Positions 21,152 through 57,014 of a DNA stretch of 64,000 bases are shown in pieces (the first letter of the stretch is position 1; the number at the start of each line of letters is the position of its first letter). Position numbers and translations under genes: made by a program. Under the pieces are notes generated by a model. The model did no database searches. It had not been told where the DNA came from and saw only the letters and a list, made by a program, of their open reading frames with translations. Source of the DNA: Amoebophrya sp. A120 (lineage: Eukaryota; Protista; Dinoflagellata); the NCBI GenBank assembly GCA_905178155.1, contig CAJINV010000015.1:643309-707308 (forward strand), in the 5' to 3' direction.

Positions 21152-24100
21152 TCAGGTCGTCTTAAACAAGTTCCCCATCTTGTTTTTCTCAAAATCCGGT
21201 AGCAATCGCTTCCGCATCGGTAGGCCCAACAGCGGATTTTTCGCCGCCAACTTGTACGCCCGTCGGCAGTGCCGCGAATTCCCGTGGGAATTCATCAAAG
21301 CGAGAAAATCGTGCTTGCACTTTTCCTCCGCGGTTGGTAATTCCTTGTTGTAATTCCGGCCATACACAACGCCCTTGTCTTTTTCCTATTACAGTGAAAA
21401 GTGCCCCCCACCCCTAAATTGCAAAAATTTGTGATGCGAAGTTTCCAAATGAAAACTTTTTGTCATGCATGAAAGCAATATGAATCTTTGTGATGCAGAG
21501 TCTAGGCGTATATAGCATTGCTTGCATGACAAGCGCCGCTTTTGCTCGGATCTTTTGCAATACAAATTTTCGCTATTCACGATTGGAAATCTGTGATGCT
21601 GCTAGATGCAAGAGGGCGAGTGTTTCTCTTAGAAAGGTTTGCAATACAAATGCTCCCGCCAAGTTCGGGGGTGGGGGCATTTTTCATTGTAATATTTCCG
21701 GTCGCTTCTTCTGGTCCATCTTGTGCATCAGTTTCAGCAGCTCCTTATCCGTTAGCCCCTTCGTCTTCTCCGGATATTCCGCACGGAACCGCTCGTATTC
21801 CCGTTGTTCTCGCTGCTTTACCACAATTCGGCGAATGAAATCTTCCTCGTCCGAAAGGTCTTCTTCGTTCTCTCGTTCGTCCGAGTCCTCTTCTTCGGTC
21901 TGTGAGTCCTCCGTCTCGGTAGCGTCCGGAAACTTTTCCACCATTTTATCCTCCTTGTACAACATCTGGAACAGATTCTCCTGCGCCCCGCTGTACCGCG
22001 CAAAATCGTGGATACCCGGATCGTTGTTCGGATTTTCTTCCCGGTAGTTGTGGCAGGTGTCCAGGAACGGGTCCTCCCAGCGGTTGTCAACGTACTCTTG
22101 GATTTTCTTGATATACCGCTGGGGATCGAGAGAAGCAAATTCCAGCTCCGCGGCCATGCGCGCCGGCTCGATGTTGTCTAGTTTTTGCTGCACGTAGAAC
22201 TCCAGTGGTAGGCCGTTTATCATGCCGTACTTGGACTGCTCCTGCGTCCTGCTCTGGACGTGCGATGTGGCGTCGCCGGGTCGCTTATCTGTAGAAGTCG
22301 CATTCTTCATCATCTCCGTCTTGATTTTTACCGCAGTCTGTGCTTCTACTTCTGCTTCCGCGTCATCTTCAGAAGGAGCTCGCTCCTTCTTTACTTTGAC
22401 AGCAGGCGGTGGCAGGCCTTGCTTACTTTCCTTTGCCCCGGTAGCTTTCTTCATAGCTTGCTTCATCGCCACCTGCTTCGTAGGTGTGGGTTTATTATTT
22501 TTCATCTGTTCGCCGTATTGAGAGGAAAAATCCCCCTCCCCATATCGAGCAGGTATGTTTCCGCAAATTTGTCTTGCTGATTTGAGACCACAAATCACGT
22601 CTGTCTTGCTAGAAGACAACTCCACAGGCTCTGCCGCATTATGCAGGCGGTTTGTGATTGTGATGCTGTTTGGCCTACAGCATAGACGTTTCTCATGCTA
22701 AGCGCCTAGGCCAAAAGCTCTCTAGTACTGAGGCTTGGCAGGAGCCTGCTTTCCTCGACTGCAAGACAAACGCAAATCCAGCATCAGAAACTTCCTTTAT
22801 TTGATATGGGGAGGGGGGATTTTTCCTTGTGATACGCCGGTCTTCTTGTTCTTTTTGCTAGCCGGTGTTTCAACAAGCTTCCTTTTCTTCGCGGCCGGAG
22901 ACTTTGCTGGTGCATCAGAAGGGTTCTTATCGGCCTTCTTCATCACGATTATTTCGTCCGGTTTTTTCATATCACTTTTATCCTCGTCACTGTCGAAGAC
23001 CGCCGCGGCATGATCGGTAGTTTCTTGTTGCCCTGCTTTGGTTGTACTATTCTTGCCAAAAATGCTAGACGTCGACAAAGCGCCTGGCTTCTCATCCCGA
23101 CGGCGCAACATGTCGGCAAACATGGAGCTGGAAGATTCGTCCAGCTCCTGCTGGTCGCACTTCATCGTGTTCTTCGACATCAATCTTCCCGCTCGCTGCT
23201 TCTCCATTTTGTGCACGACCGAGAGTGGCACATTGTACTCTTTATTGTCCATCAAAGCTGCCAACGTGGTCGCTGTTCCTGTAGTTCCACTTCCGCCCAC
23301 GACTTGCTGCTGCTGAATTTTCATCTCCAACTTCGCCCTCCTTCGCTCCGCCCGCAAATTCTCCGCATCTTGCTCGGTCTCCTCTTCGAATTGGGACTTT
23401 GTCAAAAGCTCCGCGGTGGTTGAAAACGTCTTCAGAGCTGTAGTGCTGTTGTTCGAAATAGTACTTTCTGCTTCTGCAACAGTACTAGCTGTAGTAGTAC
23501 CCGACGACGTGAAGTAGAACAGAAAAACTTGTTCTACTTTGCTGGACGGGTGGTCTACTTCGTCGGTAGAATCTTTTACGTTTCCAATTTCTTCAGCGTT
23601 CTTGTCATTCTTCTTTTTTGATGCACCAGCAGCAGCTTGCTCATCACCGTGGTCTTCAAATAGGAATTTATAATTGTCCACACAGTAACTCGTCTTCAGC
23701 ATCTGTTCTGCATTGTACTTCAAGACCGACGCCAAGGGGATCTCGATTGTCAGAAGAGTGGTGGACTTCATCTTGTTCGAAGTTCTCCCATTGGAAGGAG
23801 GACTGCTAAAGCCTTCCTCCATTTTGATCAGCACAGAGGCCTGACTCTCCTGCTCTAAAACTTCTTCTTCCTGCAAAATCCTGAAAGTGGTTATGGAAGC
23901 GTCAGGATTGAAATCGTCAAAGTTGAAATAGTTTGTGATGCATAAAATGCAACCCACAAAATGCCTGTCTTGCAGAGTAGGCAAGGGAGGCAGATTGTAA
24001 GCCTCTTGAGGGGTAGTGGTAGACATAGAGCTGCTAAAGTAGCACGACAAAAGACGTCTTCCTTACCCAAACAGCATTACAAACTGAATTTAGGCACAGC

Positions 24101-27100
24101 CAAGATTTGTCATGGGCCAATTGAAAACTGGGTTACAACTGGCATCCATTTTATGCATGGCAAATCATTTCAACTTTGTCGATTTCGATCCTGACACATC
24201 CATAGTGGTGTTTTTCACGACCAACTCCTTCCTGGTTTTCGCTTTGGAAGCTGAATTCGTATTCGATTCGACTTTTTCGCACGGTTTCCCAAACAGTTCT
24301 TCCAACCACGCCAGTTTGTCTTTCGTCACGTCGCACACGGTCACAAACTTGTCTTGGTACTCGACGTATGGATTGTAAAAGTGTCTGGGTCTGGAAAATT
24401 CCGGGACTTGTGATGCGTATTTTGTATGATCCATGATGCATGTAAATGCTAATGCATGATCTAGCATCACAGAACTTTAGAGGGCTTCCTGATGCCTATT
24501 CCGCATGAGAAGTAGCGCCCTCTCCGCGTGTTACAAACTGGACTCCTGTTGTTGGTCACGCAACATAGATTTTGGAACCCAAAGACAGCATGACAAGTTG
24601 CAATCTTTCAGACCCAGACATTTTTGCTATCCATACGACGTTTTCCATGATGGACTGTAGCAGAGCTTGGAGTTCCGGGTCGTGCTCTGGTGGTTCTGGA
24701 GCCAGCTTGTTCCCCGTGCTGTTGCTCTCGCCGGCTTTCTTCTTCGCTGCTGCTTTGCCCTTAGCGGGGGCTTCTCCTGCTTTGGTCACATTTTTTTCAC
24801 CAGCCTGTGTATCTTCTTCTTCACCAGCCCCAGCTGCTCCTGCGGCGGTCAGGGTTTTCGCATTCATCTGCTTTGTTTTTCCTCCGCTACCACTTTTCAT
24901 GATACCGCCCGACGCAGCTTCGTCCTCCTCCACGTCCATTTTGTCTCCTTTTTCAGTGCCTTCTTTTAAAATTGCAGGCAAATAATTTTGCTGGAAATTT
25001 TTATTCCGATGAGACCCACCCAGCGTGGAGGTCGTTCCCGCATTGATGTTCCTTTCGCCGGAAAGAAGTAGAATCCCTGATGTTGATGTTGAGTCGTTGT
25101 CGTTCTTCCGCAAAGTCGCGTCGAATTTTTGCAAAAAATCTTCCTTCGACTCCGGAATATCGCTCGAAACAATGTCCAAGCCGGACACCCGGAAAATGGA
25201 GTGGCAGTCTTGTTTCTCACCTTCTTTCTTCTCGTCGCCATACATGGTGTTGGAGCTGCAGTTTTCTTTCTCAAACGGCACAATCTGCAGATCGTTTACA
25301 TCGTAGTGCTCACACGTCTTTTCGTCAAAGATCTGTTTCTTCTCTCTCTTTATCAAATGCAAAAGTGTCTGGGTCTGGAAGATTGCCAGGTTTGTCATGT
25401 AATGATCCATGATGTCTGTGATGCTGCATGCTCTAGCATTACAGATTTTTCGATCGCTTTGTGATGACTCTACCGCATGACAAATGTCCTCTCCGCGTAG
25501 CACAAAGTGGAGTCCTCTTGCTGCTGGTCATGAAATACAAATCTTTTTAGAATTCAAAGACAGCATCACAAGTTTAGAATCTTCCAGACCCAGACATTTT
25601 TGCGTTTGATACTCTTTAGCTCCTCGACGAAACTCCTGTCGTAATTGCACTCCACCATGTCCCGTATCCTGGGTAAAAACTTCCCCACACCAGAGTCAAG
25701 ATGGGAAATCTGCTAGACAAATACCCAAGCTTTGGCTGTTGCGCATGACAAATTTGGGCTCGCAGTGTAGTGGTGATTAGCTAGTGCAGCACCATCACAG
25801 ATCTAGCATAGCATGCGGATTTGAGCATCACAAATCTCAAAACCCCAATAGGAACTCCCTCTCATGGGTCTCCGCATGAGAAACATTTTCAGCATGCAGA
25901 TTTGCATTACAACCCTGCGGTGGGGACGTTTTTGCTCAGGATATCCCGCTGCTTATCTTCCTCTTTCACTTTTTCTCTTTCCTTTTCCGCAAATTCTTTA
26001 TCGTAGTTGATCATATCCTTCGCGGGGACGGGGAGATACTTGTCCACTTCCCACTTGGAAACCATCAAATCCTATCAAGTGCAAATATGTCTGGGTCTGG
26101 AAGATTGCGAGGCTTGTCATGCATATTTGGAACGACCCATGACGCCTGTAATGCATAACATAGCATTACAGATTTTTAGAGGGCTTTCTGATGCCTTTTG
26201 CGCATGAGATACGCCCTCTCCGCGTAGCACAAACTGGACTCGTCCTCTTGCCTGTCATGCAGTACAGATTTTTTCAGAATCCAAAGGTAGCATCACAAAT
26301 TCCATTCCTTACAGACCCAGACATATTTGCAATGAATAGGTCCTTGTTGATCACAATTTTCTCGTCCTCCTCCGTTTCCCCCGGCACGACCAACTTCCCG
26401 CACTCGACAAACGCCCCGCGCTTCAGGTGCGCCTTCGAGATCCACCCGTCGGCCGTTTTCACCATGGGCACGGCCTGCATCATATCAAGCAAAAAAGTGT
26501 TAACGTTAGCATTGCATTCATGCATGACAAATTTTCGCTATCATGCATGCTATGCAATACAAATTTGAGCATTATTTCTCGTGTGTTCCTGCATGCCAAA
26601 TTCCGTTAACGTTAACACCTTTTGGTGTGATACATCAGAAAGGTCTTCCCCATCCCAAAGGAGGTTTTCAGCGGCTCACTCGGATCCCGCTTTGTTTGCC
26701 CGTCGTCGTCGTAAACCTCAACCTATGCATTGCAAAAGTATCCGCATCGCACTAGTATAAAATGCATTACAAATTTTCCCAATAAAAAAATTCAATGTGT
26801 CATGCTATTTCAGGTAGAAAGTTGGATTTGTCATGCATATCTGCAATTTGGTACGAGTACGATACTTTTGCACAGGATACAACCGCCCGGTTCGGGTGCC
26901 CGGGGTCCGGCGGCGGCAAATAGTCCATGTTGTAGCCCGGCTCTCCTGGTCCGGGCTGGAAAATGGACCCGTTCGGGACTAAGTTTTTGAATTCAATTAT
27001 GGACGAAGCGTCAGAATCGAAATTGATAAAGTTGAAAAATTTGTGATGCATGAAACCGATACCAGTTGGAAGCGCAATATCCAAGCGGCGCATGACAAAT

Positions 27101-30100
27101 TTTGGCACCATCGAAATCCAGTTTGTCATGCTGTTTAGAGAAAGCAGGCGTCTTTTGGCATGCTGCTTTGACAGCTCTATCGCAAACCCCGACAAGCAGG
27201 CCGCTCAGACAGTGGGGCTCGCTTGCCATCCCTGCAAGAGAGGCACTTCATGCCAATGCCTTGCAGTTTATGCATGAGAAATAATTTCAACTTTGTCGAT
27301 TTCAATCCTGACGCTTCCATATCAATCTTCATGTCCTGTTCCAAGTCGTTGTAGGCCATTCCCATGCGTTTCACCATCGTGTTATCCACACTAATTTTCC
27401 CGTACACGTACAAACGCGGTCTCTGCATGACAAAACTGGGCTTCGATCCTAGTTTAGCATGACAAGTGTTACACCCCAAGTTGGTGAAATTTGTGATGCA
27501 CTTTGTACATGTACGGAAAAATTTGTATTGCATACTTGTCGATGTCAAACGTTTCGCACCAGGGGTCCGGGTCCTCCTTGTTTTCGAAAACGAGGTGCTC
27601 GATGGCCTATCCTGTGTAAAAACTTCCCCACCCAAGAGTTGTCATGCAAATGCGCAATGACAGGAACATTTGTAATGCGCATCTCCATACTACTTAGGAG
27701 GCATTTCCAGTCGTGTTTCGGAATTTGTAATGCTGTAAACAGGATGCGGAAATGGCTTTCTCATGCGGCTTTACTTGCTAGCCAGCCCTATACTGCAGGT
27801 GGAAGCTTGTCATGCAGAACTCCCACAACTTGGGGATTTGTGTTGCAGACTTCCCATCTACTTGACTATGGTGTGGGGAGGTTTTTACATTGGATATGCC
27901 CATAATCCGCTTCATTTTGTTCGCGTCGTCGGTCAAAACTCTCTTCCCAGGCGGAAAATCGTAGTCGTTCCGCTGGAACTGGTGCGTTTCTTCCAATCGG
28001 TGCTTGAAGCGCTTATGCGTTGCAAATAAAGTACTAATATCGCACTCGTAGTAATTATCGCAACCATGCATGGCAAATTCTTTTCTCAATGCACATCCCC
28101 ATTACAAATTTCCTTTCTTATGCTGACGCTTTGTCATGCGATTTCTACTAGTAGTACAATCTATCATACTTTATTTGCAATTCATAACGCTGGTTGAACA
28201 GCATATTTCCGTCTTTCGACTCCCGGCACCCGTTCCCCGGTAGCAGCAGCGCCCCATTGTGGTAACTCTGCTGGATGAAGTTGTCCGTCAAGTCCCGTTT
28301 GATGATGAAAGGGTTGATTTCCTTCCGTGGGTAGTTGTACCGAAACAATTCCTCCCACTCGTCCCCGACGGAAGCCTCGGATAGTTCCGAGGAGTCCAGG
28401 GAACTTTCCTTCGCAAAAGACGACTCCGTACCCGTTTCCGAGCCCGAAGAGCAGGAAGAGGTTTCCGTAGGTTCGGAATCGAACGAGAGAGAAACCATCG
28501 AGTCGCTGTTCGGTGGTTCCGTCCTTACCCGGTGTGGTTTCGGGGGTTTCCGTTCGCGCTTTTCCACCTTCTCCGGTGCTGCCCCTTCTGGCGCTAATTT
28601 GTTCGGCGCTTCTTCTCTATTCGCCCCCATCGGATTGGGCTTTGCCTTCGCTACGCCTTTTTTCTGCATTTTCTTCCGCTGGTTCTTCCCATCTTCGTCC
28701 CCAGAATTGTCGTCTGACAGATCTTATGAACTGCAAAAGTATCGCACTCGTATAAATGCATTCCTCAGCATCATCATCATCATCATTGAGACGAACCCCC
28801 TGTGGTCGTCCTCACGGTGTCGTCTTGGCCCTAGGCTGTTTCGGACAGATGTTGGCTGTGTCCGGCAAGAGGACGGCTCTGCATGGGCAAATGTTGGCAA
28901 TGTCCAGCAAGAGCACTGCCGTGGCCCGTTTTCTGCCGGTTTTTCTTTTTGGCTTTCTCAGCATGAGAAATAATAATTTGTAATGCGGATTTACCTTAGC
29001 AAGAGAATGTGTAATGCATGATTGCAATTATACGAGTACGATACTTTTGCACAGGATAAATCTAAATCGAGCGAATCATCGGACCCGTCGGGGGAAGACT
29101 GGACCATTTTCCGCATCTTCTGCTTAGCCTTCGGCTTCTTGCTGGATTTGTCACCATCCTATCAAATGCAAACATGTCTGCTGGGTCTGGAAGATTCTGA
29201 GACTTGCTCATGCACGTTTTGCATGAGCCATTGTGTCTGTGATGTAAGCCCTAGGTAGCATCACAGATTTTTCGAGGGGTTATTTCTGCATATTCCGCAT
29301 GACAAATGCTCTCTCCGCATAGCACCAATTAGACTCCTTTTGCTGGTCATGCAATACAGATCTTCTTCGAATCCAAATGCAGCATCACAAGTTTACACCC
29401 TACTTCCAGATACAGACATGCTTGCATTCGATACATCCTCGTCGTCCTCGTCGCTCATCGAGGATTGCAACGGGGTGTCGTCTATCCTGTGCAAAAGTAT
29501 CGCACTCGTATTGCAATCACGCATTACAAATCTTTTTCTTGAGGCAGATCAGCATTACAAAATTTCTTCCTCATGCTGAGGAAATTTGTAATGCATTTAT
29601 ACGAGTACGATACTTTTGCAGTTCATATCGTTCTTCGTTTTTTTCTTCGCGGCGGGTTTTTTCTTCGGCTTCGCGTTGGAAGTCGAATCACCGTCGTCAC
29701 GGTCCAAAAACTCCCTTATCAAGTACAAAAACGTCGTCCCCAGTGCCCCAGACTTATCATGCAAATGCGCAATGACAAGAATGTTTGTAATGCGCAGCTC
29801 CATGAGAGGCATTTTCAGTCGTGTTTTGGAATTTGTAATGCTGTGCACAGGTTGACAAGATGACTTTCTCATGCAACTTTGCTTGCTAACCTCCAGCACT
29901 ACATTACAGAGGCGGTTTTGTCATGTGCAACTCCCAAAACTTGGCGACTTGTCTAGCAGATTTCCCATCTTGACTACGGGGCGGGGACGTTTTTCCTCGG
30001 GGTATCCCCGTCAAACATGTCATCATCCTCGTTCAGCTTCAACTTTCCGTTTTTTTTCGGCGCTTTCTTCAACCCTTTCGCTGAGACCGCCACCGCCGGC

Positions 30101-33100
30101 GCGACTTTTCCCTCCTCCTCGGAAAGACCGTCGTCGTTATCACCACCTTTTTCTTTTTTCGGCGGTGGTTTAGTACCTCGCTTTTGATGTTCCTTCTTCA
30201 GCTTCGCCACGCGCTCCTGTTTCTTCGCGTACCCTCCGCAAAGCTTCAAGTGTTCTCGTCGCTTTTTTTTATTTTTCAGTTGCTTGTTCATCAAATTGTC
30301 TTTGTCATCTTCTTGAAAGTGCAACTTTTTCCCGACTGCCTTCTGGAATTCTTTCAATTTTTTGAAATTTTCCGAGTTGTGGTGGTGGCCTGCTGCTGCT
30401 GCTGCGTCGTCATCGGAGGAGAAATCCGTTTCGATTTCCGAAGAGTCAAAGCTGAGGGAGGAACTGTTATCCGAGTACCCCTTCGGCTCCTCTCGCCACC
30501 GCCCGACCTGTTCCTTATCGGAATCTTCTTCCGAAGAGTACTCGATCATTCCCGTCATGTCAATGTTGTTTTGCCAGTTTTTCTATGAACTGCAAAAGTA
30601 TCGCACTGGTAGTAATTGCAGTCATGCAATCCTTTTCTTTGGGTAAATCCGCATTGCAAATTTCTTATTTTTTATTTCTTATGCTGAGAAAATTTGTAAT
30701 GCATTTATACGAGTACGATACTTTTGCAATGCATATTTTCTTGTGTTTCGCCATGATCGACTGGTAGACGCGCTCGGGTTCTTCTTTTTTGTCCGCGATA
30801 GAGAAGTATGAAGTGCAAAAATGTCTGGGTCTGGAAGATTCTGAGACTTGTCATGTGTTAGGCAAGATATGAAATCCACCAGGATCATAAGCCAAGCAAA
30901 TTCCCTACGACCTAAATTGAATGCTCATTGAAATCAGGCTCTAAATTTGTCGTTCAAATTTGGATCCAATGTGAAATCAGCATGTTCATACAAATGAACC
31001 AAAAATGAAGTTCATTCTAAACCCACTCTGTAAGCTAGTGATGATCAACGATGGTTGATCGGATTTCTCATAAATTTAGGGTGATTAGAACAAATTTGAA
31101 CTTTCATGTTTACCCCCTTGACTGAGACGTCAGAAATTGTGTGTTGTTTGGAACCCTAAATTTTTCCCCACAGGCTGTGACGATAGTCACCATAGATTGA
31201 TTGCGACTAAGAAACACTGAATCCCACCTAGATTCTGTTTGACATGCAAGATGGCCAGTGTTCACACCGCCCGCGTTTCTTCGTCGTTGATTGTCTTCAC
31301 ACCGTGAAAATTCGGTTGACATCATGCACGTTTTGCATCGGCCATGATGTCTGTGATGCATGCCATAGCATCACAGACTTTTTACGTTAGAGAAAACTGT
31401 CCCCACTACCCCGGTTTTCCCCAAATCAAAAATTTTTTTATGAACTGACGCAACAACACGGCCACCGGCCGCGCAGTCCGCCCGGATAGTGTCCGCTAGT
31501 GGATCTTCTTCGCGGATACTTTCTGAGGCTGTTACGTATGCAATGAGGCAAGCGGGATAGCGGCGCGCAAAAGTCGGCGCATGAGCTGACGGGGCAACAA
31601 GCTTTGTGGATGTGTGTAGCTACTTCGGCCCCATCCGCGCGCGGGCTACTGCAACGCGGCCCCGCCACACTGGCCGCGCCCAACTTCTGAGGCTCCGGCC
31701 TCACCGTTTCCCTGGGGGTCGTGCGTGCGTACCTTTTCGGGAGGTTTCTGGTGCTCGTTTTGGTGGCCGAAAGTGCGTAGATAGCTGCTTAGGGCCGAAA
31801 TCCCCAGCATACGTTTTTTTTCTCGCCAGCGTGTCCGAACATGCACTCAGGGAAACGGTGCCGGCCAGCCTCAAGCGGAGAAGACAGGTCCGCGGCAAGG
31901 GGCATTGCGTTCAGCCTTAGGTGGCCGGGGGGCGGGTCTGGCATGGGCGCCTTGCCCAGGGCGTTGCCTCGCGGGCCCCGAGCTGCTTGCGCCCCAAAAA
32001 GCCGGGCAAGGCGTGCAGTGTCTTTGAGTCCAGCAACACACTTGGGGGAGCGGGCTCCGGTCTGGCCATTCGCGGCGCAGGTCGCTTGCGAAGGGCCCGC
32101 CCTGCTTACAATTGGATCGAAAAAAAAAAATTGTCTTTGGGGAAAACCGGGGTAGTGGGGACAGTTTTCCCTACCGTACTTTTTGAGGCCTTCGTGATAC
32201 CAATTCCGCATGACAAATGCCCTCTCCGCGTAGCCAAAATTGCATCCCCTTTGCTGGTCATGCAATACAGATTTTTTTGGAATCCAAATGCAGCATCAGA
32301 AATTCGGATTCTTCCAGACCCAGACATTTTTACATTTGATAAGAAGTCCGCTTCTTCCATGTACCGGTCTTGGTTTTTCACGCAATTTTTTATCACAAGA
32401 AAAACTGTTATACGTTAACGGTTTTCATCACAGATTGCAGTCATGCATCACAAACGTAGCCCAATCTGCATGCTATGCATGACAAATTTTTTAGCCACGT
32501 TTAGTGATGCATTGCTGCGTCACGAATTCCGTTTTTATCAACGTAGTTAGCACTTTCTTTATTTTCCTGTGATATCTTCCAACGCGTGCTGATACTTTTC
32601 CGCGGGCCGCTTGTAGTCTAAAAACGGGAGCATGGCCTTCGTGTTGTCGGTCAGCTGCGTCCATTTTTTGTAGAGTTCTTCCCTTTTCTGCTCTTCCTCC
32701 GCCCGTTCCTCGGCTGTCATGTGCTCGTAGATGAGACATTTCCACTTCGCGGATTATCAAAACGAAAACATGTCTGGGTCTGGAAACTTGTGATGCTAAT
32801 CCTAATTTATGAATTGATGTAGTGGGGACACTGCAATAGGCAGCCAGGCATGACAAGCTTCTGGGCTCCTTTGTGTTTCGCTTTCCGCATGACAAACTAC
32901 ATTTTTGCATGACAGGCAAGAGGCGCTTTTCCTGCTCACGCATTACAGGTTCGAGAATCACGTGGGACAAGCATGACAAACTTGCATTCTTCCTGACACA
33001 GACATATTTGCAGTTGATACAGCGTTGTACTCCGCAATTTTCTCCTCCTCCCGCATGTAATGCATTGCAAAAATATCATACTAGTCTAAACTGCATCACA

Positions 33101-36100
33101 AACAATTTTTGCAAGAGGAAAAGTGAAATTTGTAATGCTGATTTACCAGAGGTAGGAGATTTGCCATGCATGACTGCAATCAGTAAGTACGAGTATGACA
33201 CTTTTGCAGTGCATATACGTTCTTTTCAAACAGCACGTTCTCAATATCCTGTTCCTTCTCGTTTTCCCGCTGCTTCTCGACGAAAAAGTTGTGCTCGGAC
33301 CCAATTTGCTCGATTTTCAGCAGTTCGATCTGCAGCCAGACGCAGATGTTGAAGCAATACGAGGCGTGTCGCAAAGCCGCGAACTTCTCGTGATCCGGCA
33401 AAGCTTCATCCAACACCGTGCTCGGGTCGCCGTCACACGTGGCGGTCAACATCTGCCGCTGAAAATTCTCCCAAATCTCGTTTTCGCCGGTGATTTTCGA
33501 GAGATTTTGGGCGTGCGCGACATCGGCTTTCATCTTTTTGAAGGGGTTGTTGCTGTCAAAATCGTTTTCGTGGTTCATGAAGGCGAGCTTATGGAAAGAA
33601 AAAAGTTTGTCACAGTCACCAACTTGCAGGCTTTGCATTACAAATTTTTTTAGCATCACAAGTTTTCCTTGTATTGCAGAAACACTAGGGAAATCCCCTA
33701 TGAAGCTTGGCTGTCATGCATTTTTACGCATGGCAGCCAGTTTTGTATTGCAAAAATGCGCATGAGTGATCGTGACGACCTTTTTTTGTTTGCTAGAGCT
33801 GCTCGTTGTTGTATTGTTGCCGGAGGAATTCCCGCACCCGCTTGGCCTGAATCAGATTCTCCTTCTCCATATGGATGTGTCAGGTTTGAAATCGACAAAG
33901 TTGAAATGACTTGTAATGCATAAAATCGATACCAGTTGGAAGCCCAATTTCTAAGCGGTGCATGACAAATTTCGGCGCCGTATAAATCCAGTTTGTCATG
34001 CTGTTTAGGGACAGAAGGCGTCTTCTATCATGCTGCTTTACTAGCATCTCCGTCGCAGACCCACAACAGGCTGGCAGTCGGCTTCGCTTGCCATCCCTAC
34101 AAGAGAGGCACTTTATGCCTTGCATTTTATGCATGATAAATTATTTCGACTTTGACGATTTCAATCCTGACGCTTCCATACTCCACCATTCCCAAATACT
34201 CGCGGAACCGAGTCGCCTTCTCCTCGTTGCTGTACGTTTGCTGCCGTGGGTATCAACAGGAAATGATTTTTTTTTCCCGCGCACGTGGTTGTACACGTGC
34301 AGCCTCTGCATGACAAGACTTGCCTCCGAAGATGATCCTAGTCAGCGTGACAAGTGTAGTTCTTACATCTTCACGCTAGCCTGCTGGCGAGACAAATAAC
34401 TTGTGATGCATTTGCTTGTACGCGGGCGGGGAAATAGTATTAAAATTGGATTTTTGCATAGCTGGCCGTCCTGCCGGCCCCTTAGCTCCGGGACGGGTTC
34501 CGGGACATCGGCCATGACGATCGTGTCGACCTTTTTCAGCAAATCCTCCGTGAGGTCTTCTTCTTCCCATCTTTTGTATTCTTCATCCGTATCGGGGTCT
34601 TCGGATTCCTTCCCTTCCCAAGAATACTCCGACATCTCTTCCGTCTCTATCCTGAGTAAAAGCGCCCCCACCTCATAGCCCAGATGGGAAATCTGCAAGA
34701 CAAATCAACAAGCTTTCGCTGTTGCGCACGACAAGCTTGGCCTCGACGTCGCACGAGCGTAATGCTGTTTAGCTACTTCAAGAGCATCACAGAGCTAGCA
34801 TATCATGCTTATTGGAGCATGACAAATTCCGAAACACGACGAGAAAACGCTTCTCATGGGGCTCCGCATGAGAAACATTTTCAGCGTGCAAAGTTGCACG
34901 ACAACTACGGGGCGGGAGTGTTTTTACTCAGGATAGTCTCCTTCAAATATTGACACTCCCGCTCAAAATCCTCGAACAGCCGCCGCTCGATTTCGTGGCG
35001 GCGCGGTTGCACCGGTATGCATTGCAAAAGTATCGCAGTATCAATTCCAATTGCAGTCATGCATTACAAATCTCGTTCCCAAGGCAAATCAGCATGACTA
35101 ATTGCATTTCTCATGCTGAGCGAATTTGTATTGCAATTACTACTAGCAGGATACTTTTGCAGTTCATAACCGGCTTTAAAGGTTCGGTCAGCGCTTTCTG
35201 CATCACTTTCTCCTTCAAATTCAGGTATTTGTACTTCTCGAAGATATGGAAGCGTCAGGTTTGAAATCGTCAAAGTTGAAATAATTTGTAATGCATAAAA
35301 TGCGATACAGAAAGTGACTCTATTGCAGAGGACCCACGGAAGGCAGATTACAGCCCTGGCAAGGGTCAAAAGTTGGACTGCTAACTAGCATGACAGAAGG
35401 CAGCTCTTTTGCCCTACACCGCATGACAGACTCGCTTTCAGGACCGGGAAAATTTGTCATGCACCGACTACAAACTGTAGGTCTAACTGGTATCCGTTTT
35501 ATGCATGACAAACTATTCCAACTTTGACGATTTCAAACCTGACACATCCATAGAAGAGGTACAGGTCTTTGTCGCTCTCGATCTGCTTCAAACAAACCGC
35601 TTGCTGCTCTTCTGTGGTGTAGTTTTCGTTGTTTTTCTATGCAAGACAAATTTATTCCCGCACATGCACAAAATGCATGACAAACTTCGCTACCACATTG
35701 GGGTGTCAAACTTGTCATGCTGACTAAGATTGAAGGCAAGTTTTGTCATGCAGGAACAGCACTTGTAACACTGTGCGGGAACTTTACTGTGGGTATTTTT
35801 CCAAACACGTCGATGTTGGTCTGGGCCAGGATCTATCCTGTGCAAAAGTATCGCACTCGTAGTTGTAATTGCAGTCATGCATTACAAATCTTTGTCTTAA
35901 GGTAAATCCACATTACAAACTTTATTTCTCATGCTGAGGAAATTTATAATGCAATCTTTTTTTTTTTTCTAAACTCTTCGCGCTTGGCTTTTCTTTTCTT
36001 TTGTTCTTTTTCTTTTTGATTTTCTTTTTTTTTTTTTGATTTTCTTTTTTATTTTTTTGATTTTCTTCGTTTTGGATTTTCTTTTTTTTTGATTTTCTTT

Positions 36101-39100
36101 TTCTGATTTTTTCAGCCACTGCGCAAAAAGCGGTCTATACTAGTACGATACTTTGCACTGCATACGGTCAACTGTCGATTTTTCTTGTCCGGGTGGACGG
36201 AGCCAAAACCCAGGTTCGAGTCCACGATCGGAACGAGTTGGGTAGAAGCCTCATCGGTAGTAGAGCTCGTAGTGGAGGACAGCACGACTGCGCCGCCACT
36301 AGACTGGTGGCTCCTCGAGGAAACTACCGGAACGAGAGCAGTCGTCGTTGCCGGCTTCTGCATCCAGGTTTTGCCTGCGTCGGTGGTTTTTGTCGTCGAG
36401 CTCGAAACAAGTACTCCACCAGTAGACGCAGAAACCACATCTTCGCTATCGACGTCCATAGGAATGGCTACGTCGTCTATTCTTGTTCCTTCCCCCGCTT
36501 TGTCGTCGGAAAGGGCCGGAGCATTCATTTCGTTTCCACCCTCTTCAGCACCACATTTCAACTTTCTCATGTAACCGCTGTCCGCAAACGCGTCGAGGTG
36601 CGAAATGTTCACAAGCCCGTTTTGTTCTCTTCGCGCGAGAGTCTTGCTTCTCGGGGTCAGTTGCTGTTTTTGCTGGTCCATTTGATTGTTCTGCTTTTCG
36701 TCGCCAGACGATAATTCGTCCCCGGAGCCACTAAAGTTCCCCGATGAACAACTTCCGCTGTCACTAGACGTTTCAAAAACGTCAGCAGGAACATCTTCTT
36801 TAGTGCCGCCAAGAACAGCAGTAGCTGTACCAGCAGAACAACTGCGACCACCAGCAGAACAAGTTTTCATCGATTCCGGTGCGTTGTGCTCCTCACGTAG
36901 CTGCTGGATGATAAAACCATCCACTGAGTTCTCCTTTAACATGTACTTCTCGAACTTTTCTTTTTTCCCCGATGATTTCCTCTTCGTCTTCTGATCGACA
37001 TGATCCGTGAGCATTTTCACGTCCCCCTCCTCCGACGTGATTTTCTTATCGGGAAGATGAGTTTCAATTTCCCTCCGCTTCAGCAGATTCTGATATTTCC
37101 CCTGTTCCACCAAAACCTTTTCCACCACCCACTCCTGATCCTCCAGCGCGTACGGTTTGTCTTTCTCCCCCTGCCCGTGCTGTTCCTATCAAATGCAAAA
37201 GTGTCTGGGTCTGGAATGTTGCCAGGTTTGTCATGCATGTTTTGCATGACTCCTGACGTCTGTGATTGATGCCCTAGCATCACAGATTTTGTGAGGGCTT
37301 TCTGATGCCTATGCCGCATGAGAAATGCCCTCTCGCCGGGGCAAAAACTGGACCGCTTTTGCTGTTCATGCAATACAGATTTTTGTAGCATCCAAATGCA
37401 GCATCACAAGTTCGCATCCTTCCAGACCCAGACATTTTTGCAGTTCATAGTTCCGACCAGGACTCGATCTCGCCCATCACCGGCTGCTGCAGGCGGTCGC
37501 TGTGGACCGCTTCTAGCTTTATGGAAGCGTCAGGTTTGAAATCGTCAAAGTTGAAATAATTTCTCATGCATAAAATGCATGACCCGAGGCACGTGTGTTG
37601 CAGAGCAGGCAAGTGAGGCCGATTGCGATTGTAAGCCTGTTTGGGTTTACAGCTCGAGCTGCTAAAGTAGCATGAGAAAACCGGCGCTCTTTGCCTAAGC
37701 AGCATGACAAACTGGATTTAGGGACCACCGAAATTCGTCATGCGCCACTTAGAAACTGGGTTCCAACTGGCATCCATTTTATGCATGACAATTTTTTTCA
37801 ACTTTGTCGATTTCAAGTCTGACACATCCATAAGCTTGTCGAAGTTTCTGAAGGCTTTCTCCACGATGTGCGGCGGGTAGAGATTTAGGAGTTTGTCCTT
37901 CAGCGCCTGTTTCATTTCCTTCCGCTCTTGTTCCGCGTCCACGATGTGCTTTTCGTACATCGGTTGGTAACCGTTCGGGTAGGCGATTTTCGTCGTATTA
38001 TCCTCGTTGAGCTTCTGGTACATGGAGCAACCCTGCTCCGAGTTCACTAATAACTGCTTTCGAATTTCAAATTCCTTGTACTGTTCGTGACACTGCTCGC
38101 TGTGGCAGAATTTCTGGTCTTCCGGATTGGGTAGAAACGCTTTGGTCCAAAGCATCTCCCGTAGCTTGTTGATGGTGCGCTGCACCGTGCCCAGATTTTT
38201 CTTCGCGTCGTCCGTCATGAGCAAAGTGTTCCAGACATGATTGCCACCGAGAAGATGGAGCATGGAGTTCTGCTGGGAAGCAACATTTTCACCGTCTTCA
38301 TGATCTGCGACAGAATCTTCATCGTCCTGCTCTTTCTTGAAAACGCTCGGGAACATGGTATCCGAGTACTGCTCCTCCACCGGTCCTCCTGGTTCTACTT
38401 TTTCCACTGTTAATTTTGCTTTCAACTTCTCCATCTGCATTTGCACCAGCTTCCCCACCTGCAGGTCCAAGTTGCTTAGTGACTCTTCAGTGGAAAACGC
38501 CGGGCGCCGTGCGACAGATGTTGGATCAAGAACTACATCATCTGCAGCAGTTGCCGACGTTTTGTCTTCGTAAAAATCGGGAATCAACTTCGTCAAATTC
38601 TGGCTCCACTCGTAATCCTGTAGGGAGTACAAAGCCTCTTGTAGCTGCTCGAGCGGCGTGCCTGTATTCGAGAAATTCTCAGACACGCCGTTCACGTTCT
38701 TGAAAGTACCCTGCTCGTAAATGGTTTTAGAATTCTCTTTCTCGCCACCTTCCACGGCACTCATTTTGTAGTTCCCTGCAGCTTTCCTTTCCAACTTTTC
38801 GTTCTCTTTCACCAAGAAGTTCTTCTCCTGCGTCTTCAAATTTTCGTACACTTCCCGGCCAAATTGCTCAATCAGAAATCCGCACTTCTCATCGGAATGC
38901 TCCAGCGCCGCGGCAAAATGCTTCATCCCCGCTTCCGGAACCACCGTACCCAACAGCTCGAACATGCGACGGAGCTTCTTGATGTAAATGTTCATTTGCT
39001 CCTTTTTGTGCTGCTTCAGAGAGTTTAGCTTCTCCACGTATTCATTCGTTACCGTTTCTTCGTACTCCTTTTTCAGCGCCTCGGCCTGTTTTTCCTTCCG

Positions 39101-42100
39101 CTCCAAGTACCAGGGAATCATTAGGTCTGACAGATCCAGCAATCCTCGGATCTGTTTGTCGGTGGCTAAATCCCGTTCCGCCTTCACTGCGTCCACCGCT
39201 TCCTGCTCAAATTTCGTGAACGGCAAGATCGGTTGTTTGTACTTTGGGTCCATCACCCGCGGCCCGTAGACCTTCGTGGTGTGGTCGCCGTGATGCTCCG
39301 TGTCTAGGGTCGCAAGTACGACGTCAACCAAGTCTTGCTTGTTGTCTTTGTAGATCTTCGGCAACAGCCCCGTTTTCAAACCTGGAATTTCGATCAACCG
39401 TAAATCCTTCAAATCCTTGTCGTTCTGACACTCGTCGTAGAGCTTCTTGTCCTCCTGTTCGCGTTCAAATTTGTGGTAGTCGTTCCCCCCATAGGGGTAC
39501 CGCTCCTTTTCCGGCGGGGGCGGGGCCGGTTGGCTCGGATCGGTGTTCTCGTCAAACTCCAGACTGATGACCCACGCGTAGTCGTTAATCGTTTGCAGCT
39601 CCCCGTTATACAGGTCCAGCGCGTACTGTGCCGCCTTAGCGTGATTTGAAACACGGAGTTGCAGAGCCGGGTTATCGATCCGCGTGTTATCCATCGCCAC
39701 AATGTAGGCCAGCGGGTCGTGTAGTCCGATCTTGTTCGTCACCTTCCGGCCGTAGTCCGCGAAGGCCTGGTATACAATGTAAATTTCCCGTACTTACATG
39801 TACAAAATGCATGACATATTCTGCTAACTTGCAGTGTACCACTTGTCATGCTAGACTAGGATGGAAGGAAAGTTTTGTCATGCAGAGACTGCATTTGTAC
39901 GTGTACGGGAAATTTACTGTGGATACCTGGTCCCGCATGCTGTAGCCGATCAGCCGGCCCTCGTTGTGGTTTTTGATGAAACCCTATCAAAATGAAAAAT
40001 CCCCCCTCCCCATATCAAAACGAAGCTTCTGATGCTGGATTTGCGTACACAAATCAGGTTGGTATTGCAGGAAGACACTGCGGCCAGATCCCCAGGCTAG
40101 GTCGGGGCGCATGGGTCTAGTTGTTCAGCATGGCAAACGGCTCCCCTTTAGGCCCAACAGCATGGCAAATCGCTTCCACAATGGGGCGAAAGCCCCTGCC
40201 ATTGTCTTCTTGCAAGACAAATATGATTTGCGACCTCAAATCAGCAACGCGAATTTTCGAAGTCATACCTTTTCAATATGGGGAGGGGGGATGTTTCCTT
40301 TTGATAAACCCTCGTAGCAGGGAACGGTCGACAACTCGCCCGCGCCGGGAGCCTCGTCCATAGCCTGGATAAATTTCAGTTTGACGAGGAAGATTTTAGA
40401 AGTTTATTTGTATTGCACAGCGTGCAGCGTCGCTGGTGTTTCTCATGCGAGAGCTCATGAGATGAAACACCAGTGACAGAAAACGAGGGGAGCGCTGTGC
40501 AATTTTCTGTCATGCAGAATTCACATCAGACACGTGTCTGTTCTGTCTTCAACATGCGGAGCGTCCTACAACTTTATACCTGTTCCTGCCACGGCAACAT
40601 CCAGTCCTGGTCGTGGTTTTCCGGGTCGTTCCAGTACTCATCCGTTTTCCTCTGTTTCTCTTCGTCCGCCACTAAATTTATTTTCCTCGCCCACTCCACC
40701 CCTTCCAGCGCCTGAAAACTTTTTCCCCCTTCCGGGAGCAGCGCCAAAGCCTGCTGTCCCGCGTGGTTTTGCGCGTTGAAGATGTGTTTGTTATACGGGT
40801 CTGCGGTGTTTTCCACATTGAACAGATTTCCCGCCCGGTTGTTGGCGTCGGTGTGGACAATCTGCTGCCGCTTCTTGTGCGATAGTAATTTGTAATTCAA
40901 ATTGGAACAACCTCCATTCGCGGGGGTCTGGTTGATTTTCAGCTTTTTCAACTGCACGGTCGGAATTTCGTTGTGCGAGTCCATGCACTGCAACCGTTCC
41001 TGGTCCTGGTTCAGGAAATTGCGGGAAACGGTGCTCAGCGCCTTCCCGGAAGTGACCATACTGTTGTCGGACCGCAACCCGGTTCCGCCGGAGCCGGTCG
41101 GCAGCAAATCATACATCAAGTGCGGGTGCTCCCGCGGATCCACGCAGCGCTCGTCGAATGTGAAGCAATCTTCATCGTCAAAGTCCGCAATTTCCGGGTC
41201 GTCCTCCAGTACCTGCGTCGTGAATACCGTCGGCGGCGGCAGAATGGAGGTGCAGAACTGCTTCTCGTCCCCAACGTCCATCAGCGCCTCCTTCTTCGAC
41301 CATTCGGGGACAAACGGCGCCCGCTCCGGGTGCTTCTTGATCTGACTGGCCCACCACGCGTCTTCCGTCGCTTTCATCTTTTTCAGCGCTTCTTCACTGT
41401 CCTTCAGCTTCGGCAATAAGTACTTTCTCTCGTAGATTTGCAACTGCTCGTCCGACAGCTTGCACTGGGAATTCAGAAAAAACCTCGCCGTGCGAAAATC
41501 CCCTCTGGGTAACGCCGTGTCGTAGACTTCTTCCTGTTTCAAAGCCGGGAACGCCTGGAAGGACAAATCGCTGTCGTCGTAGTAGTATCCTGTGCAAAAG
41601 TATCGCACTCGTATTGCAGTCATGCATTACAAATTTTTTTGTCAATGTAAATCCGCATTACAAATTTTATGTCTCATGCTGAGGGAATTTGTCATGCATT
41701 TATACGAGTACGATACTTTTGCAGTTCATAAGAAGGTTTGGTGGTCAGTTTCATCCAAACAGTACTCCATATTCGGGTAAAACTCCCGCGCGGCGACCAG
41801 TTGGCGCTGCGCAGCGGTCAGGGTGTATCAACTGCAAAAGTGTCTGGGTGGTCTGGAATATTGCCAGGTTTGTCATGCATATTTTGCATGACCCATAATG
41901 ACTGCAGTGCATGACGTAGCATCACAGATTTTTGGAAGGCTTCCTGATGCCACCTATTCCGCATGGCAAATGCCGTCTCCGCGTAGCACAATCCGGGCTC
42001 CTCTTGCTGGTGATGCAATGCAGATTGTTTTCGAATCCAAGGACAGCATGACAAATTTGGATCCTTCCAGACCCACACATATTTGCAATGAATAGGGTGG

Positions 42101-51100: not shown

Positions 51101-54100
51101 TTCCCGTCGGTGGTTGCCCTGGAGTTTTGCCAGCTGATTGTTCACTGCCTCGCGCCACATCTTCTGCATTTCCTCCTTCTGCTTCACCTGTGTGGCGTTC
51201 TCAACTGTTACATTCTCAACTGTCACATGATGGATCTGTGATGCAAAAGCACCACTATTATCCACACGATGATCAAGCTGCTTCGCATGATAAATTTGCA
51301 AAGTGCTAAACATTACCTAAATCCGACCGTGCGGAATTTGTAATGCTACAGGCGCAACCTCCACCCTTTCACGTTTCTCGTTCTTGCGTCACAAATCCAC
51401 GCAACAGTTGAGAATGTAACAGTTGAGAACGCCATAAACTGGCGCATCTCCTTGTAGAACGTTTCCAGACGCTATGGGGGTGTCAGGATCGAAATCGTCA
51501 AAGTTGAAATTGAAATAGTTTGTCTTTGTCATGCATAAAATGCAACGCAGAAATTGTCTCTATTGCAGAGGACGCAAGAGAGGCAGACTGTAAGCCTGTT
51601 GAGGGGTAGAAACTGAGGTGCTCACGTAGCACGACAAAAGGCGTCTTCCTCATCCAAACAGCATGACAAACTGGATTTGGATTCTACCCAGATTTGTCAT
51701 GCGCCACTTGGAAACTGGGCTTCAACTGGCCTCCATTTTATGCATGGCAAATTAAGTATTTCAACTTTGTCGACTTCAATCATGACAGGTCCATAGACGC
51801 GCCCGCTTCTCCCGTTTCTCGGCATCGTCGTTCGGAAACCGATTTTTATTCTCTACTTCCCCGCCCAAGTCCAAAAACGATCGCGCGCTGAAATTTCGCG
51901 CACCTACCCGGCCGGTGCCTTGTTCCTCCCCTGAAACATGAAGATCCTGCGAAGATTCGTGGTTGGGTGGCACGGGCGTGGGCTGCAGCAACGTGGGCAG
52001 CTTTATTTTATTGCGATCGTTTTCATTCTCTCTCTTCGGGCTCAGCAAACCGAAGGGATTCTTTTTATCCTGATCCTCATCTCCGCCATCAATCATGGAG
52101 TTCTTGTCATCATCTCCCCCAAGGACGGAGGACCGGGAGATCATGCGAGAAGATTTCTCTGCTGGAAGTAGTTGTGAAGACTGCTCCTTGTCTTCACCAT
52201 CACCACCACGTGGTCGACCGCCGGGCATGGGCGAAGAACAAGATTCGTCGAGTGCAAAGAAGCCGGACAATTCCGACCTAGCAGCACTCGCAGGTACAGG
52301 CGAGCCCATCGGGTAGTCGGAGTACTCCATGTTCCACAGATGCTCCTCCAGCATGCCAAACTCCGATTGCGCCGGAATTTCGCTCAGCTCGTTCAGTTCC
52401 GAGAGGGCAGATGACCGGTCGTCCTGCTGATCACTCCTCCGATTTTTGTTTCTGCGACCTCCTCTGTTGCTGCCCGGAGTCACCAGGCCACTCATGTTCA
52501 GATCGTTGGGCGCCGTCCCCACCACGTCTATTGTCGAAAGGTCGACCTTATAAACTGCAAAAATGTCTGGGTCTGGTTCTGGAAGAGTCGGGGCTTGATG
52601 TCATGCAGATTTTGCAAGACCCGGCCCCGGGAGGTCTGTGATGCTGGTGCTAGCATCACAGATTTTTTGAGAGCTTCTTGATGCTAATTACGCATGAGAA
52701 ATGCCCTCTCTGCGTGCCAAGAACGGACTCCTCTTGCTGCTGCTCAGGCAACACAGACACTTTTAGAGTCCGCAAACAGCATTACAGGTTCCACTTTTCC
52801 AGACCCAGACATTTTTGCAATCCATAGACCTGGCTTACGTCGAACACGGAGACTTCGGCAGCTTCGTCATCGTCTCCATCTCCGGCGTATCAACTGTAAA
52901 AGTGTCTGGGTCTGGAAGAATTCGAGACTTATCATGCAGCTTTTGCGTGACCGATGAGGTCTGGAATGCAGGACCTAGCATGACAGATTCTGTACGATCT
53001 TTCTCATGCCTATCCTGCATGAGAAACTGCCTCCCGACTTGGTCAAAACTGGGAGACTTTTGGTACTTAATCATGCAACACAGATTTTTGCATGCTTCAG
53101 ATTTGGCATGACAAGTTGCATTCTTCCAGACCCAGACACTTTTGCATTTAATACAGCGGCTTGCTCGACGATGTTGTCCTCCGTCTTCCGGTATCAAATG
53201 CAAAAGTGTCTGGGTCTGGAAGATTTCTAGACTTGTCATGCAGGTTTTAGATGAGTCTTGATGTCTGTCATGCGTGCCCTAGCATCACAGATTTTTTGAG
53301 GGCTTCTTGATGCCTATTCCGCATTACAAATCAATGCCATCTCCACGTAGCAAAAATCACACTCCCTTTGCTGCTCATGCAATACAGATTTTTTTGCAAT
53401 CCAAATGCAGCATCACAAGTTCCAATCTTCCAGACCCAGACATTTTTACATTTGATATCCGGCGCTTCGGGTTCCGCACGGGCGTGGACGCTGATGAAGC
53501 CTCCTGTTTGACTTTGACCTTCACCTTTGTCGTGCTTTGTGTGCCCTCATGATCTCCAAGAAAGCTCTCTTCGACGTGTAGTTCTTCCTTTGTTCCCGAA
53601 ACCACACTACTTGCATCAAGCAACGCGTCTTTGATCTTGATCGCCGAAATAGTACTAGGATCTTCTTCGTCCACCTTCAACCGGGCACCAGCAGCTGACT
53701 CCTTGACTCTCTTTTTCCGCGCCTCCTCGACCATTTCCTGCTTCACGATCTCCGCGGCATGCGGTGCCGAGTAAAACTCCGGCCGCTGGACTTTGTCCAC
53801 TTTCTCAAACTTCTTCAGCCGTTTCTGCAGGACGTGATTGCGCATGTGGTCAATGTCGAACGTCTGCAGTTGGAACCCGTTGCTGTAGTCGTAGTCCGGC
53901 ATGTGCTATCAAATGTAAAAATTATGTCTGGGTCTGGAAGAGTCATGCTGTTTTTGCATGACGCGGCAGAAGGTTTGCCATGGAAGCTCTAGCATCACAG
54001 GTTTCGAGAAGCTTCCGACATGCCGAATCCGCATGACAAATCCCCCATTTTGGTGACAGAAAGTGGGCAGCTTTTGCTACCTATGCATAAGAGATTTTTC

Positions 54101-57014: not shown

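What the first reader, a model, noticed from the sequence alone, without database searches (positions are those of the whole stretch)
21152..57014. A hidden 36-kb gene: 60 introns and a roughly 6,300-aa orphan protein
The ORF track shows only dozens of fragments. One fixed rule (remove TAT..ATA plus 5 nt) at 58 elements, plus two GT-AG introns, gave a stop-free frame at every junction from MDNKSKKN (57014) to GNLFKTT* (21152). Some exons are only about 35-60 nt (e.g. 53154-53191). About half of the locus is intron. I recognise no domain; charged low-complexity linkers alternate with aromatic-rich, globular-looking blocks. If the model is right, 58 non-canonical splicing events per transcript require very high per-intron fidelity.
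Basis: partly seen in the sequence, partly recalled or inferred. Interest (0 to 1): 0.85.

Follow-up and report, generated by a model that had tools for sequence, protein, structure and literature searches.

The report
Giant gene packed with transposon introns
A marine parasite of algae has a 36-kb gene split by 60 introns, 58 of them small transposons without normal splice signals; most of the gene and this intron type are already on record, but its transcripts suggest one fixed cutting position, which the original description left open.

Summary
Removing 58 inverted-repeat elements, each with one copy of a 5-nt target duplication, plus two GT-AG introns gives 61 exons and a stop-free 6,273-aa frame. 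Spliced contigs verify 34 of 60 intron lengths; one contig links introns 31-60.

It is not hidden. The organism is Amoebophrya sp. A120, the elements are its published introners (PMC7789003), and residues 1143-6273 equal GenBank CAD7968482.1 exactly. Two things are added here. One is a likely 1,142-aa N-terminal extension, whose link is not shown by RNA. The other is the cut position: at 11 of 11 junctions with diverged duplications the contigs fit a cut one base before TAT and four after ATA, in both element orientations. The paper calls this position variable or unknown.

The rule is also not strict: 8 of 58 ends differ by one base. The protein has no Pfam domain. The one 643-aa exon searched exhaustively found only the protein itself. 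It is predicted to be mostly disordered and is likely a nuclear scaffold (weak evidence).

The parts
21152..57014 (-). Whole gene model: 61 exons, 60 introns, 6,273 aa, about 712 kDa
   Evidence: all intron coordinates are in the full report
21152..50870 (-). Part already annotated as CAD7968482.1 / GSA120T00014292001 (model aa 1143-6273, introns 12-60)
   Evidence: 0 differences over 5,131 aa
50871..57014 (-). Predicted N-terminal extension (aa 1-1142, exons 1-11 and the start of exon 12, introns 1-11)
   Evidence: Open frame; every exon scores as coding in frame. RNA seen only next to intron 6; the link across introns 9-11 is not shown by RNA
20048..21151 (-). 3' untranslated region, about 1.1 kb
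   Evidence: Spliced contigs are laid down to 20800 and run 703-752 nt further; the end at about 20048 is computed from contig length
49177..49455 (-). Intron 14, canonical GT-AG
   Evidence: an RNA contig leaves the genome at 49456; agrees with the annotated protein
40365..40579 (-). Intron 26, canonical GT-AG
   Evidence: agrees with the annotated protein; not seen in the RNA rows displayed
26069..26339 (-). Intron 54: introner whose diverged duplication (GGACC/GGATT) fixes the cut at one base before TAT
   Evidence: Joint 26068 to 26340 with 0 ambiguous letters in 3 runs of one sample; equivalence classes
28010..28187 (-). Intron 48: introner; RNA excludes the cut directly at TAT
   Evidence: Joint 28009 to 28188
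28721..29059 (-). Intron 47: same family as intron 48 in the opposite orientation; RNA excludes the cut directly at TAT
   Evidence: Joint 28720 to 29060; orientation
35830..36165 (-).
30803..32342 (-). Intron 42, the longest (1,540 nt), holding a nested 796-nt TAC..GTA element at 31383-32178 with its own 5-nt duplication
   Evidence: absent from the spliced contigs
37834..39766 (-). Exon 29, the longest (1,933 nt); the only part searched against all 1.84 billion representatives
   Evidence: one hit, the protein itself

Best explanation
This is a transcribed and spliced gene of Amoebophrya sp. A120, likely one 6,273-residue protein, whose 58 non-canonical introns are likely non-autonomous DNA transposons that the cell cuts out at a likely fixed position, one base before TAT and four bases after ATA. 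Shown: each element has inverted ends (TAT-N7-AAA ... TTT-N7-ATA) and a 5-nt duplication, and the RNA lacks the element plus 5 nt. At informative junctions the RNA fits keeping four bases of the left copy and one of the right, which would restore the pre-insertion sequence in any phase and either orientation. Inferred: the cutter reads the symmetric end motif and measures from it. It is most likely a relaxed major spliceosome (about 55%), because the shifted cut puts U at +2 and A at +3 as in an ordinary donor that has lost its first G. Inferred and weak (about 40%): the protein is a mostly disordered, SUMO-site-rich nuclear scaffold.
For: Gene: stop-free model. Record offsets are constant in 3 of 3 long contigs, and 15 of 15 displayed joints have the model's length; 34 of 60 introns are verified by record coordinates. 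Contigs of run X5 pass unspliced through introns 3-4, 14 and 26, so the introns are in the DNA. The model is identical to the annotated protein over 5,131 aa. The 50 linking codons score 33.9 bits; 0 of 1,888 overlapping intergenic windows are both stop-free and score as high. Register: 11 of 11 informative junctions allow the cut at -1, 6 allow 0 and 9 allow -2, P about 0.002 if cuts fell evenly over the duplication. The annotated protein adds intron 41, which excludes -2 and beyond. The 149-nt family is spliced in both orientations (4 and 7 copies), and the cut at 0 is excluded in both. With this cut, +2 is T in 58 of 58, +3 is A in 58 of 58, +4 is T in 55 of 58, and -7 is A in 58 of 58. Protein: no hydrophobic segment and 81% predicted disordered; [VI]KxE 16 against 5.2 +/- 2.3 in 300 local shuffles, 0 reaching it; K[KR]x[KR] 31 against 19.6 +/- 4.1.
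Against: No displayed RNA contig bridges introns 1-5, 9-13, 22-24 or 26, and the public annotation starts at residue 1143. The spliced contigs come from two samples of one study and are labelled RNA only by guess. Only one junction (intron 54) fixes the register by itself; 2 of the 11 ranges rest on piece ends at 90% likeness; 10 of the 21 imperfect duplications were not seen in RNA. +1 is G in only 18 of 58 and the 3' dinucleotide is free, and the paper found no U1 snRNA (PMC7789003, section 10), so spliceosomal catalysis is untested. VKxE ranks 5th of 2,142 three-residue patterns with several others as enriched, and IKxE is not enriched, so the nuclear reading is weak.
Confidence: 0.8

Rival explanations
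1. Two neighbouring genes: an upstream gene of about 1,100-1,150 aa that stops inside element 9, 10 or 11, and the annotated 5,131-aa gene.
For: The public model starts at residue 1143. No displayed RNA contig crosses introns 9-11. Retaining any of them ends the frame at 1,098-1,150 aa.
Against: The three elements are well formed (inverted repeat 15-19/20, duplication 4-5/5). Exons 10-11 and the start of exon 12 score as coding in the same frame. There is no intergenic spacer.
Confidence: 0.12
2. The gene is as modelled, but the introners are removed by a non-spliceosomal, structure-guided nuclease and ligase acting on the terminal RNA stem, as proposed for euglenid nonconventional introns.
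For: There is no conserved terminal dinucleotide at either end. The ends are predicted to pair (mean probability 0.74; above 0.5 in 48 of 56). Orientation does not matter. U1 snRNA was not found in A120 (PMC7789003).
Against: There is no sign that RNA pairing is selected: G-U 34 against A-C 46 mismatches (P = 0.22), and sense and antisense strands fold alike. Stem positions 4-7 pair in only 22-44 of 58, while positions 1-3 and 11-13 pair in 53-56, which suits motif reading. A120 keeps U2, U4, U5, U6 and most spliceosomal proteins (PMC7789003).
Confidence: 0.35
3. The cut position varies within the duplication, as the original paper's figure legend states, and the agreement seen here is luck of a small sample.
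For: PMC7789003, Fig. 3 legend and Fig. S23 legend (inverted repeats 1-5 nt from the splice sites). Only 11 junctions were seen here, in assembled contigs that hide minor forms.
Against: 11 of 11 share one position, P about 0.002, or about 0.009 for the 9 junctions laid at 100% likeness. A perfect duplication makes aligners report scattered positions even when the cut is fixed (inference).
Confidence: 0.2
4. The protein is a cytoplasmic or cortical structural protein (helical rods joined by linkers) or a host-directed factor, not a nuclear scaffold.
For: K and E make up 20% of residues. Single-sequence models are mostly long helices, but at pLDDT 37-39 they carry no weight.
Against: No hydrophobic leader or membrane segment; basic clusters and [VI]KxE are enriched.
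Confidence: 0.4

Closest known systems
Introner elements among the non-canonical introns of Amoebophrya sp. A120 (Farhat et al. 2021, PMC7789003)
   Same: Same organism; inverted repeats starting TAT, seven variable bases, then three or more A; 3-5-nt direct repeats; about 240-270 nt; many families; no terminal dinucleotide consensus.
   Different: The paper's legends call the cut position variable or unknown; here 11 of 11 informative junctions fit one position in both orientations. Density is 3.2 introns per kb of CDS against 1.42 RNA-supported introns per kb genome-wide.
CAD7968482.1 / GSA120T00014292001, 'unnamed protein product' of A120
   Same: Identical to model residues 1143-6273.
   Different: Lacks residues 1-1142 and introns 1-11 of this model.
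MITE-like introners with target duplications in other eukaryotes, e.g. Symbiodinium microadriaticum and Florenciella (Gozashti et al. 2022, PMC9860276)
   Same: DNA-transposon hallmarks; insertion plus splicing leaves mRNA length unchanged; splice boundaries lie in the duplication.
   Different: Those carry or co-opt splice sites from the duplication. Here the duplication is free in sequence, and only 2 of 58 read GT..AG under the shifted cut.
Euglenid nonconventional introns (as reviewed in PMC11282704)
   Same: Non-canonical ends, inverted repeats pairing a few bases inside the intron ends, repeats resembling target duplications, unknown mechanism.
   Different: Euglenid pairing is CAG/CTG at +4..+6 with -8..-6, and those introns leave as circles. 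Here it is TAT/ATA at +2..+4 with -7..-5, and the excised form is unknown.

Membership tests
Amoebophrya A120 introner elements | Organism is strain A120 | tested here: met
   Neighbouring NUDIX exon 100% identical to an A120 protein; the gene itself matches an A120 protein
Amoebophrya A120 introner elements | Terminal inverted repeats beginning TAT-N7-AAA | tested here: met
   T 58, A 58, T 55 of 58 at positions 1-3; A 47, 45, 56 of 58 at positions 11-13
Amoebophrya A120 introner elements | Direct repeat of 3-5 nt at the exon/intron borders | tested here: met
   5/5 in 37, 4/5 in 14, 3/5 in 5, 2/5 in 2 of 58
Amoebophrya A120 introner elements | Repeated families of related introns | tested here: met
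   46 of 58 fall in 7 similarity groups; 12 singletons
Amoebophrya A120 introner elements | Removed from RNA without GT-AG ends | tested here: met
   34 of 60 introns, all of them introners, verified in spliced contigs
Major-spliceosome (U2-type) introns | GT..AG ends | tested here: not met
   2 of 58 introners under the shifted cut; met for introns 14 and 26
Major-spliceosome (U2-type) introns | Lariat intermediate and U2/U6 dependence | not testable with these tools
   Needs branch-point sequencing or inhibition
Euglenid-type nonconventional introns | Excision as full-length circles guided by a selected RNA stem | tested here: inconclusive
   Stem predicted, but no sense-strand bias; circles not testable
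Autonomous TIR DNA transposons | Encoded transposase | tested here: inconclusive
   56 of 58 elements are under 360 nt; the nested 796-nt element has no stop-free stretch over 129 codons; no transposase profile was run on the two long introns
Any described protein family | Profile or sequence match above threshold | tested here: not met
   No Pfam family at its cut-off in 29 exon pieces or in spliced residues 1143-5368; spliced junctions of residues 1-1142 were not scanned

The most novel reading that the evidence does not exclude
The roughly 30,000 repeated introns reported for A120 are cut at one fixed, orientation-independent position (N-TAT ... ATA-NNNN). The reported absence of any splice signal would then be an alignment effect of the 5-nt duplication. 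The real signal would be a symmetric transposon end that doubles as a G-less donor (N-U-A-U) and a ruler for the acceptor, read by a spliceosome without U1. That would let any insertion of these transposons become a perfect intron, even 58 times in one 19-kb message.
Probability: 0.45. Interest if true: 0.65.

Novelty: already known. Interest (0 to 1): 0.35.

Why it matters
The gene is an extreme but ordinary product of a long coding sequence and a published introner invasion; genes with tens of introners in A120 are already noted (PMC12130899). The useful part is the register. How these introns are spliced is an open question in PMC7789003, and a fixed cut makes it testable from public RNA-seq and gives a simple rule for repairing gene models such as this apparently truncated one.

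Tried and rejected
Model building: no whole genome is held for this window. The automatic path search with exact TAT/ATA ends gave 51 introns with wrong stretches and was rejected.

Homologue and family searches:
- Word-index searches found nothing for exon 29 among proteins of 1,127-3,215 aa or for exon 22 among 134-429 aa. Both length limits exclude a full-length orthologue.
- Metagenome scans: 64 and 52 pattern matches, none confirmed.
- ESM Atlas: best score 0.76 for exon 29 and no usable hit for exon 22.
- PDB sequences: nothing at E 0.1 for exon 29 and one E 0.38 hit for exon 26.
- Single-sequence AlphaFold2: pLDDT 38.8 and 37.1; no fold search was run on these.
- Pfam hits below cut-off were ignored. 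Rfam: 0 matches. No internal protein repeat.

RNA runs: none of the listed holders is on record as RNA. The 2026 raw-read run X9 laid 218 reads, all only partly, and X7 gave only short pieces, so neither informs. Contig depth in X1 falls from 29.5 to 3.9 over 8 contigs from the 3' end towards the 5' end; this fits one long message, but contig depth cannot rank parts of a gene, so it is not counted. No spliced-leader relic at the gene start (motif recalled).

Mechanism: selection on RNA pairing was not found.

Earlier scan notes: none for this genome or for look-alike stretches.

Full report
1. Observation. The minus strand from 57014 to 21152 carries short elements with inverted ends and flanking 5-nt repeats. 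An automatic path search that required exact TAT and ATA ends gave a wrong 51-intron model. Fifty of 58 are strict TAT..ATA. The duplication is 5/5 in 37, 4/5 in 14, 3/5 in 5 and 2/5 in 2, and it stops sharply at five bases. Shuffles give 0-1 strict pairs in each of 20 runs against 39 observed. A scan that did not use the first three bases recovered 39 of the 58 plus 2 extra calls.

2. Intron coordinates under the RNA-supported cut (minus strand, first to last base): 56360-56104, 56046-55893, 55724-55550, 55315-55048, 54165-53903, 53458-53188, 53154-52884, 52827-52545, 51796-51469, 51437-51187, 51083-50887, 50740-50463, 50225-49936, 49455-49177 (GT-AG), 49073-48032, 47856-47703, 47662-47304, 47006-46741, 46679-46364, 45626-45360, 45296-45143, 44406-44179, 43739-43470, 42095-41822, 41731-41582, 40579-40365 (GT-AG), 40307-39981, 39926-39767, 37833-37516, 37450-37183, 36165-35830, 35796-35634, 35553-35241, 35169-35012, 34936-34644, 34461-34247, 34181-33866, 33796-33586, 33216-33055, 33020-32751, 32575-32387, 32342-30803, 30736-30580, 30005-29713, 29628-29479, 29434-29156, 29059-28721, 28187-28010, 27897-27604, 27535-27379, 27322-26994, 26880-26720, 26633-26479, 26339-26069, 25944-25661, 25612-25347, 24636-24363, 24205-23888, 22835-22512, 21695-21383.

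3. Transcripts. Eleven runs were listed and seven were laid. Three runs of one sample each hold a long contig (7,362, 9,976 and 7,114 nt) made of exon pieces. Their record coordinates keep a constant offset to the model at all 7, 8 and 8 displayed pieces, which covers introns 31-60 in two of the three. All 15 displayed joints have the model's length; 33 more were not displayed. A 1,862-nt contig adds introns 29-30 and a 1,658-nt contig introns 20-21, giving 34 of 60. Contigs also leave the genome at the model's exon edge next to introns 6, 14, 19, 25 and 28, but their other side was not displayed. Contigs of run X5 run unspliced through introns 3-4, 14 and 26, so the introns exist in DNA. These runs are RNA by guess only and come from one study.

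4. Already on record. The neighbouring NUDIX exon is 100% identical to an Amoebophrya sp. A120 protein, and an A25 relative is in the same collection. Exon 29 against 1.84 billion representatives hit one protein, P0121. It is CAD7968482.1 / GSA120T00014292001, 5,131 aa, a cluster of one, and equals model residues 1143-6273 with no difference. A search for these identifiers found no paper. Farhat et al. 2021 (PMC7789003; passages, section 10, Table 1 and supplementary legends seen, figures not seen) describe A120 introners with TAT-N7-AAA inverted repeats and 3-5-nt direct repeats, 66% non-canonical introns, no U1 snRNA, a mean CDS of 1,773 bp and transcript-guided gene models. PMC12130899 (passages) notes tens of introners in single A120 genes. 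This gene has 3.2 introns per kb of CDS against 1.42 RNA-supported per kb genome-wide, and neighbouring genes carry the same elements.

5. The N-terminal extension. Nothing stops the frame upstream of the annotated Met (50870). All of exons 1-13 score as coding in frame under a codon model trained on the annotated part. The 50 codons between exon 9 and that Met score 33.9 bits, reached by 0 of 1,888 overlapping intergenic windows, 64 of which are stop-free. I put one gene at about 88%. Whether residues 1-1142 are annotated as a separate protein was not checked.

6. The cut position. With a perfect duplication every cut inside it gives the same mRNA, but 21 of 58 duplications have diverged. Eleven of these were visible in the contigs: 9 at 100% likeness and 2 at 90%. 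I read their allowed ranges from the joint and piece tables. Intron 54 fixes it alone. If cuts fell evenly over the duplication the chance is about 0.002 after allowing for six choices, or 0.009 for the nine. The annotated protein agrees, giving Leu4173 rather than Val and excluding -2 at intron 41; it derives from transcripts of the same organism and is not independent. The intron is therefore N-TAT...ATA-NNNN. Its first two bases are NT and its last two are free, which would explain why the paper saw no dinucleotide signature. The paper's Fig. 3 legend calls the position variable and unknown, and the Fig. S23 legend gives 1-5 nt; Figs S19-S23 themselves, which I could not see, may already show the register. 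Four searches on Amoebophrya introns and passages of PMC11282704, PMC9860276 and PMC12787238 gave no statement of a fixed cut; subscription papers such as Roy et al. 2023 were seen only as references.

7. Mechanism. Shown: transposon anatomy, exact removal, and both orientations in the 149-, 311- and 288-nt families (4 and 7, 5 and 3, 3 and 2 copies), with the cut at 0 excluded in both orientations of the first (introns 39 and 47 against 31 and 48). The signal must therefore be largely in the symmetric ends. The ends can pair (0.74 mean probability in 56 introns), but antisense folds equally well and G-U pairs do not outnumber A-C mismatches (34 against 46), so selection on an RNA stem is not seen. 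The eight variant ends spare +2 T, +3 A and -7 A while their pairing partners vary; this is suggestive only, given eight events and a pattern noticed afterwards. Inferred: a U1-less spliceosome reads N-U-A-U as a donor and places the acceptor at a set distance from the ATA end (55%). A structure-guided non-spliceosomal route (35%) is the main rival. The resemblance to the ordinary GU-A donor consensus is from general knowledge. Retention would disrupt the frame at 59 of 60 introns, so 99% success per intron leaves 55% full-length messages and 95% leaves 5%; real rates were not measured.

8. The protein. It is 712 kDa, pI 5.45, with no hydrophobic segment and 81% predicted disordered by a charge-hydropathy index, and it has no internal repeat. 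No Pfam family reaches its cut-off in 29 exon pieces or in spliced residues 1143-5368. 'Orphan' is tested exhaustively only for exon 29, 10% of the protein; the other searches were limited or blank, and about 59% of A120 proteins lack annotation. [VI]KxE, the SUMO consensus (recalled), occurs 16 times against 5.2 expected, and basic clusters 31 against 19.6, but VKxE is only 5th of 2,142 patterns and IKxE is not enriched. A nuclear scaffold is my best guess at 40%.

9. Verdict. A real, mostly annotated gene carrying a published intron type. What is added is a likely 1,142-aa extension and a fixed, orientation-independent cut that can be tested genome-wide. Interest 0.35.

Noticed in passing
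window 2232-56359: The roughly 262-nt introner family lies in one orientation relative to the minus strand in 19 of 21 copies (two assignments weak), whereas the 149-nt family is split 8 to 10. This may reflect selection or an insertion bias.
   Followed up: partly
window 31383-32178: A 796-nt TAC..GTA element with its own 5-nt duplication is nested inside intron 42; it could be spliced first, like a twintron.
   Followed up: partly
window 21152-57014: Introns sit in coding stretches with high GC3 (0.75 against 0.66; 2 of 2,000 circular shifts reach it) and more aromatic residues, and avoid the Ser/Thr/Ala/Gly linkers.
   Followed up: partly
window 21152-57014: Under the shifted cut the introner phases are 29, 17 and 12 for phase 0, 1 and 2 (P = 0.02 against even).
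   Followed up: no
window 48745-48961: A 13-nt tandem array lies inside the 1,042-nt intron 15, which looks like an introner with later insertions.
   Followed up: no
window 18360-19839: A NUDIX hydrolase (ADP-sugar pyrophosphatase-like) gene on the minus strand with three introners; by eye, its annotated protein P0001 also fits the shifted cut.
   Followed up: partly
window 2400-7100: A WD40-repeat gene on the minus strand with about seven introners; it resembles CFAP52 (name recalled, not tested).
   Followed up: no
window 11280-15557: An open frame of 1,091 codons on the minus strand after removing three introners.
   Followed up: no
window 57095-57164: A possible 70-nt GT-AG intron or trans-splice acceptor in the 5' untranslated region.
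   Followed up: no
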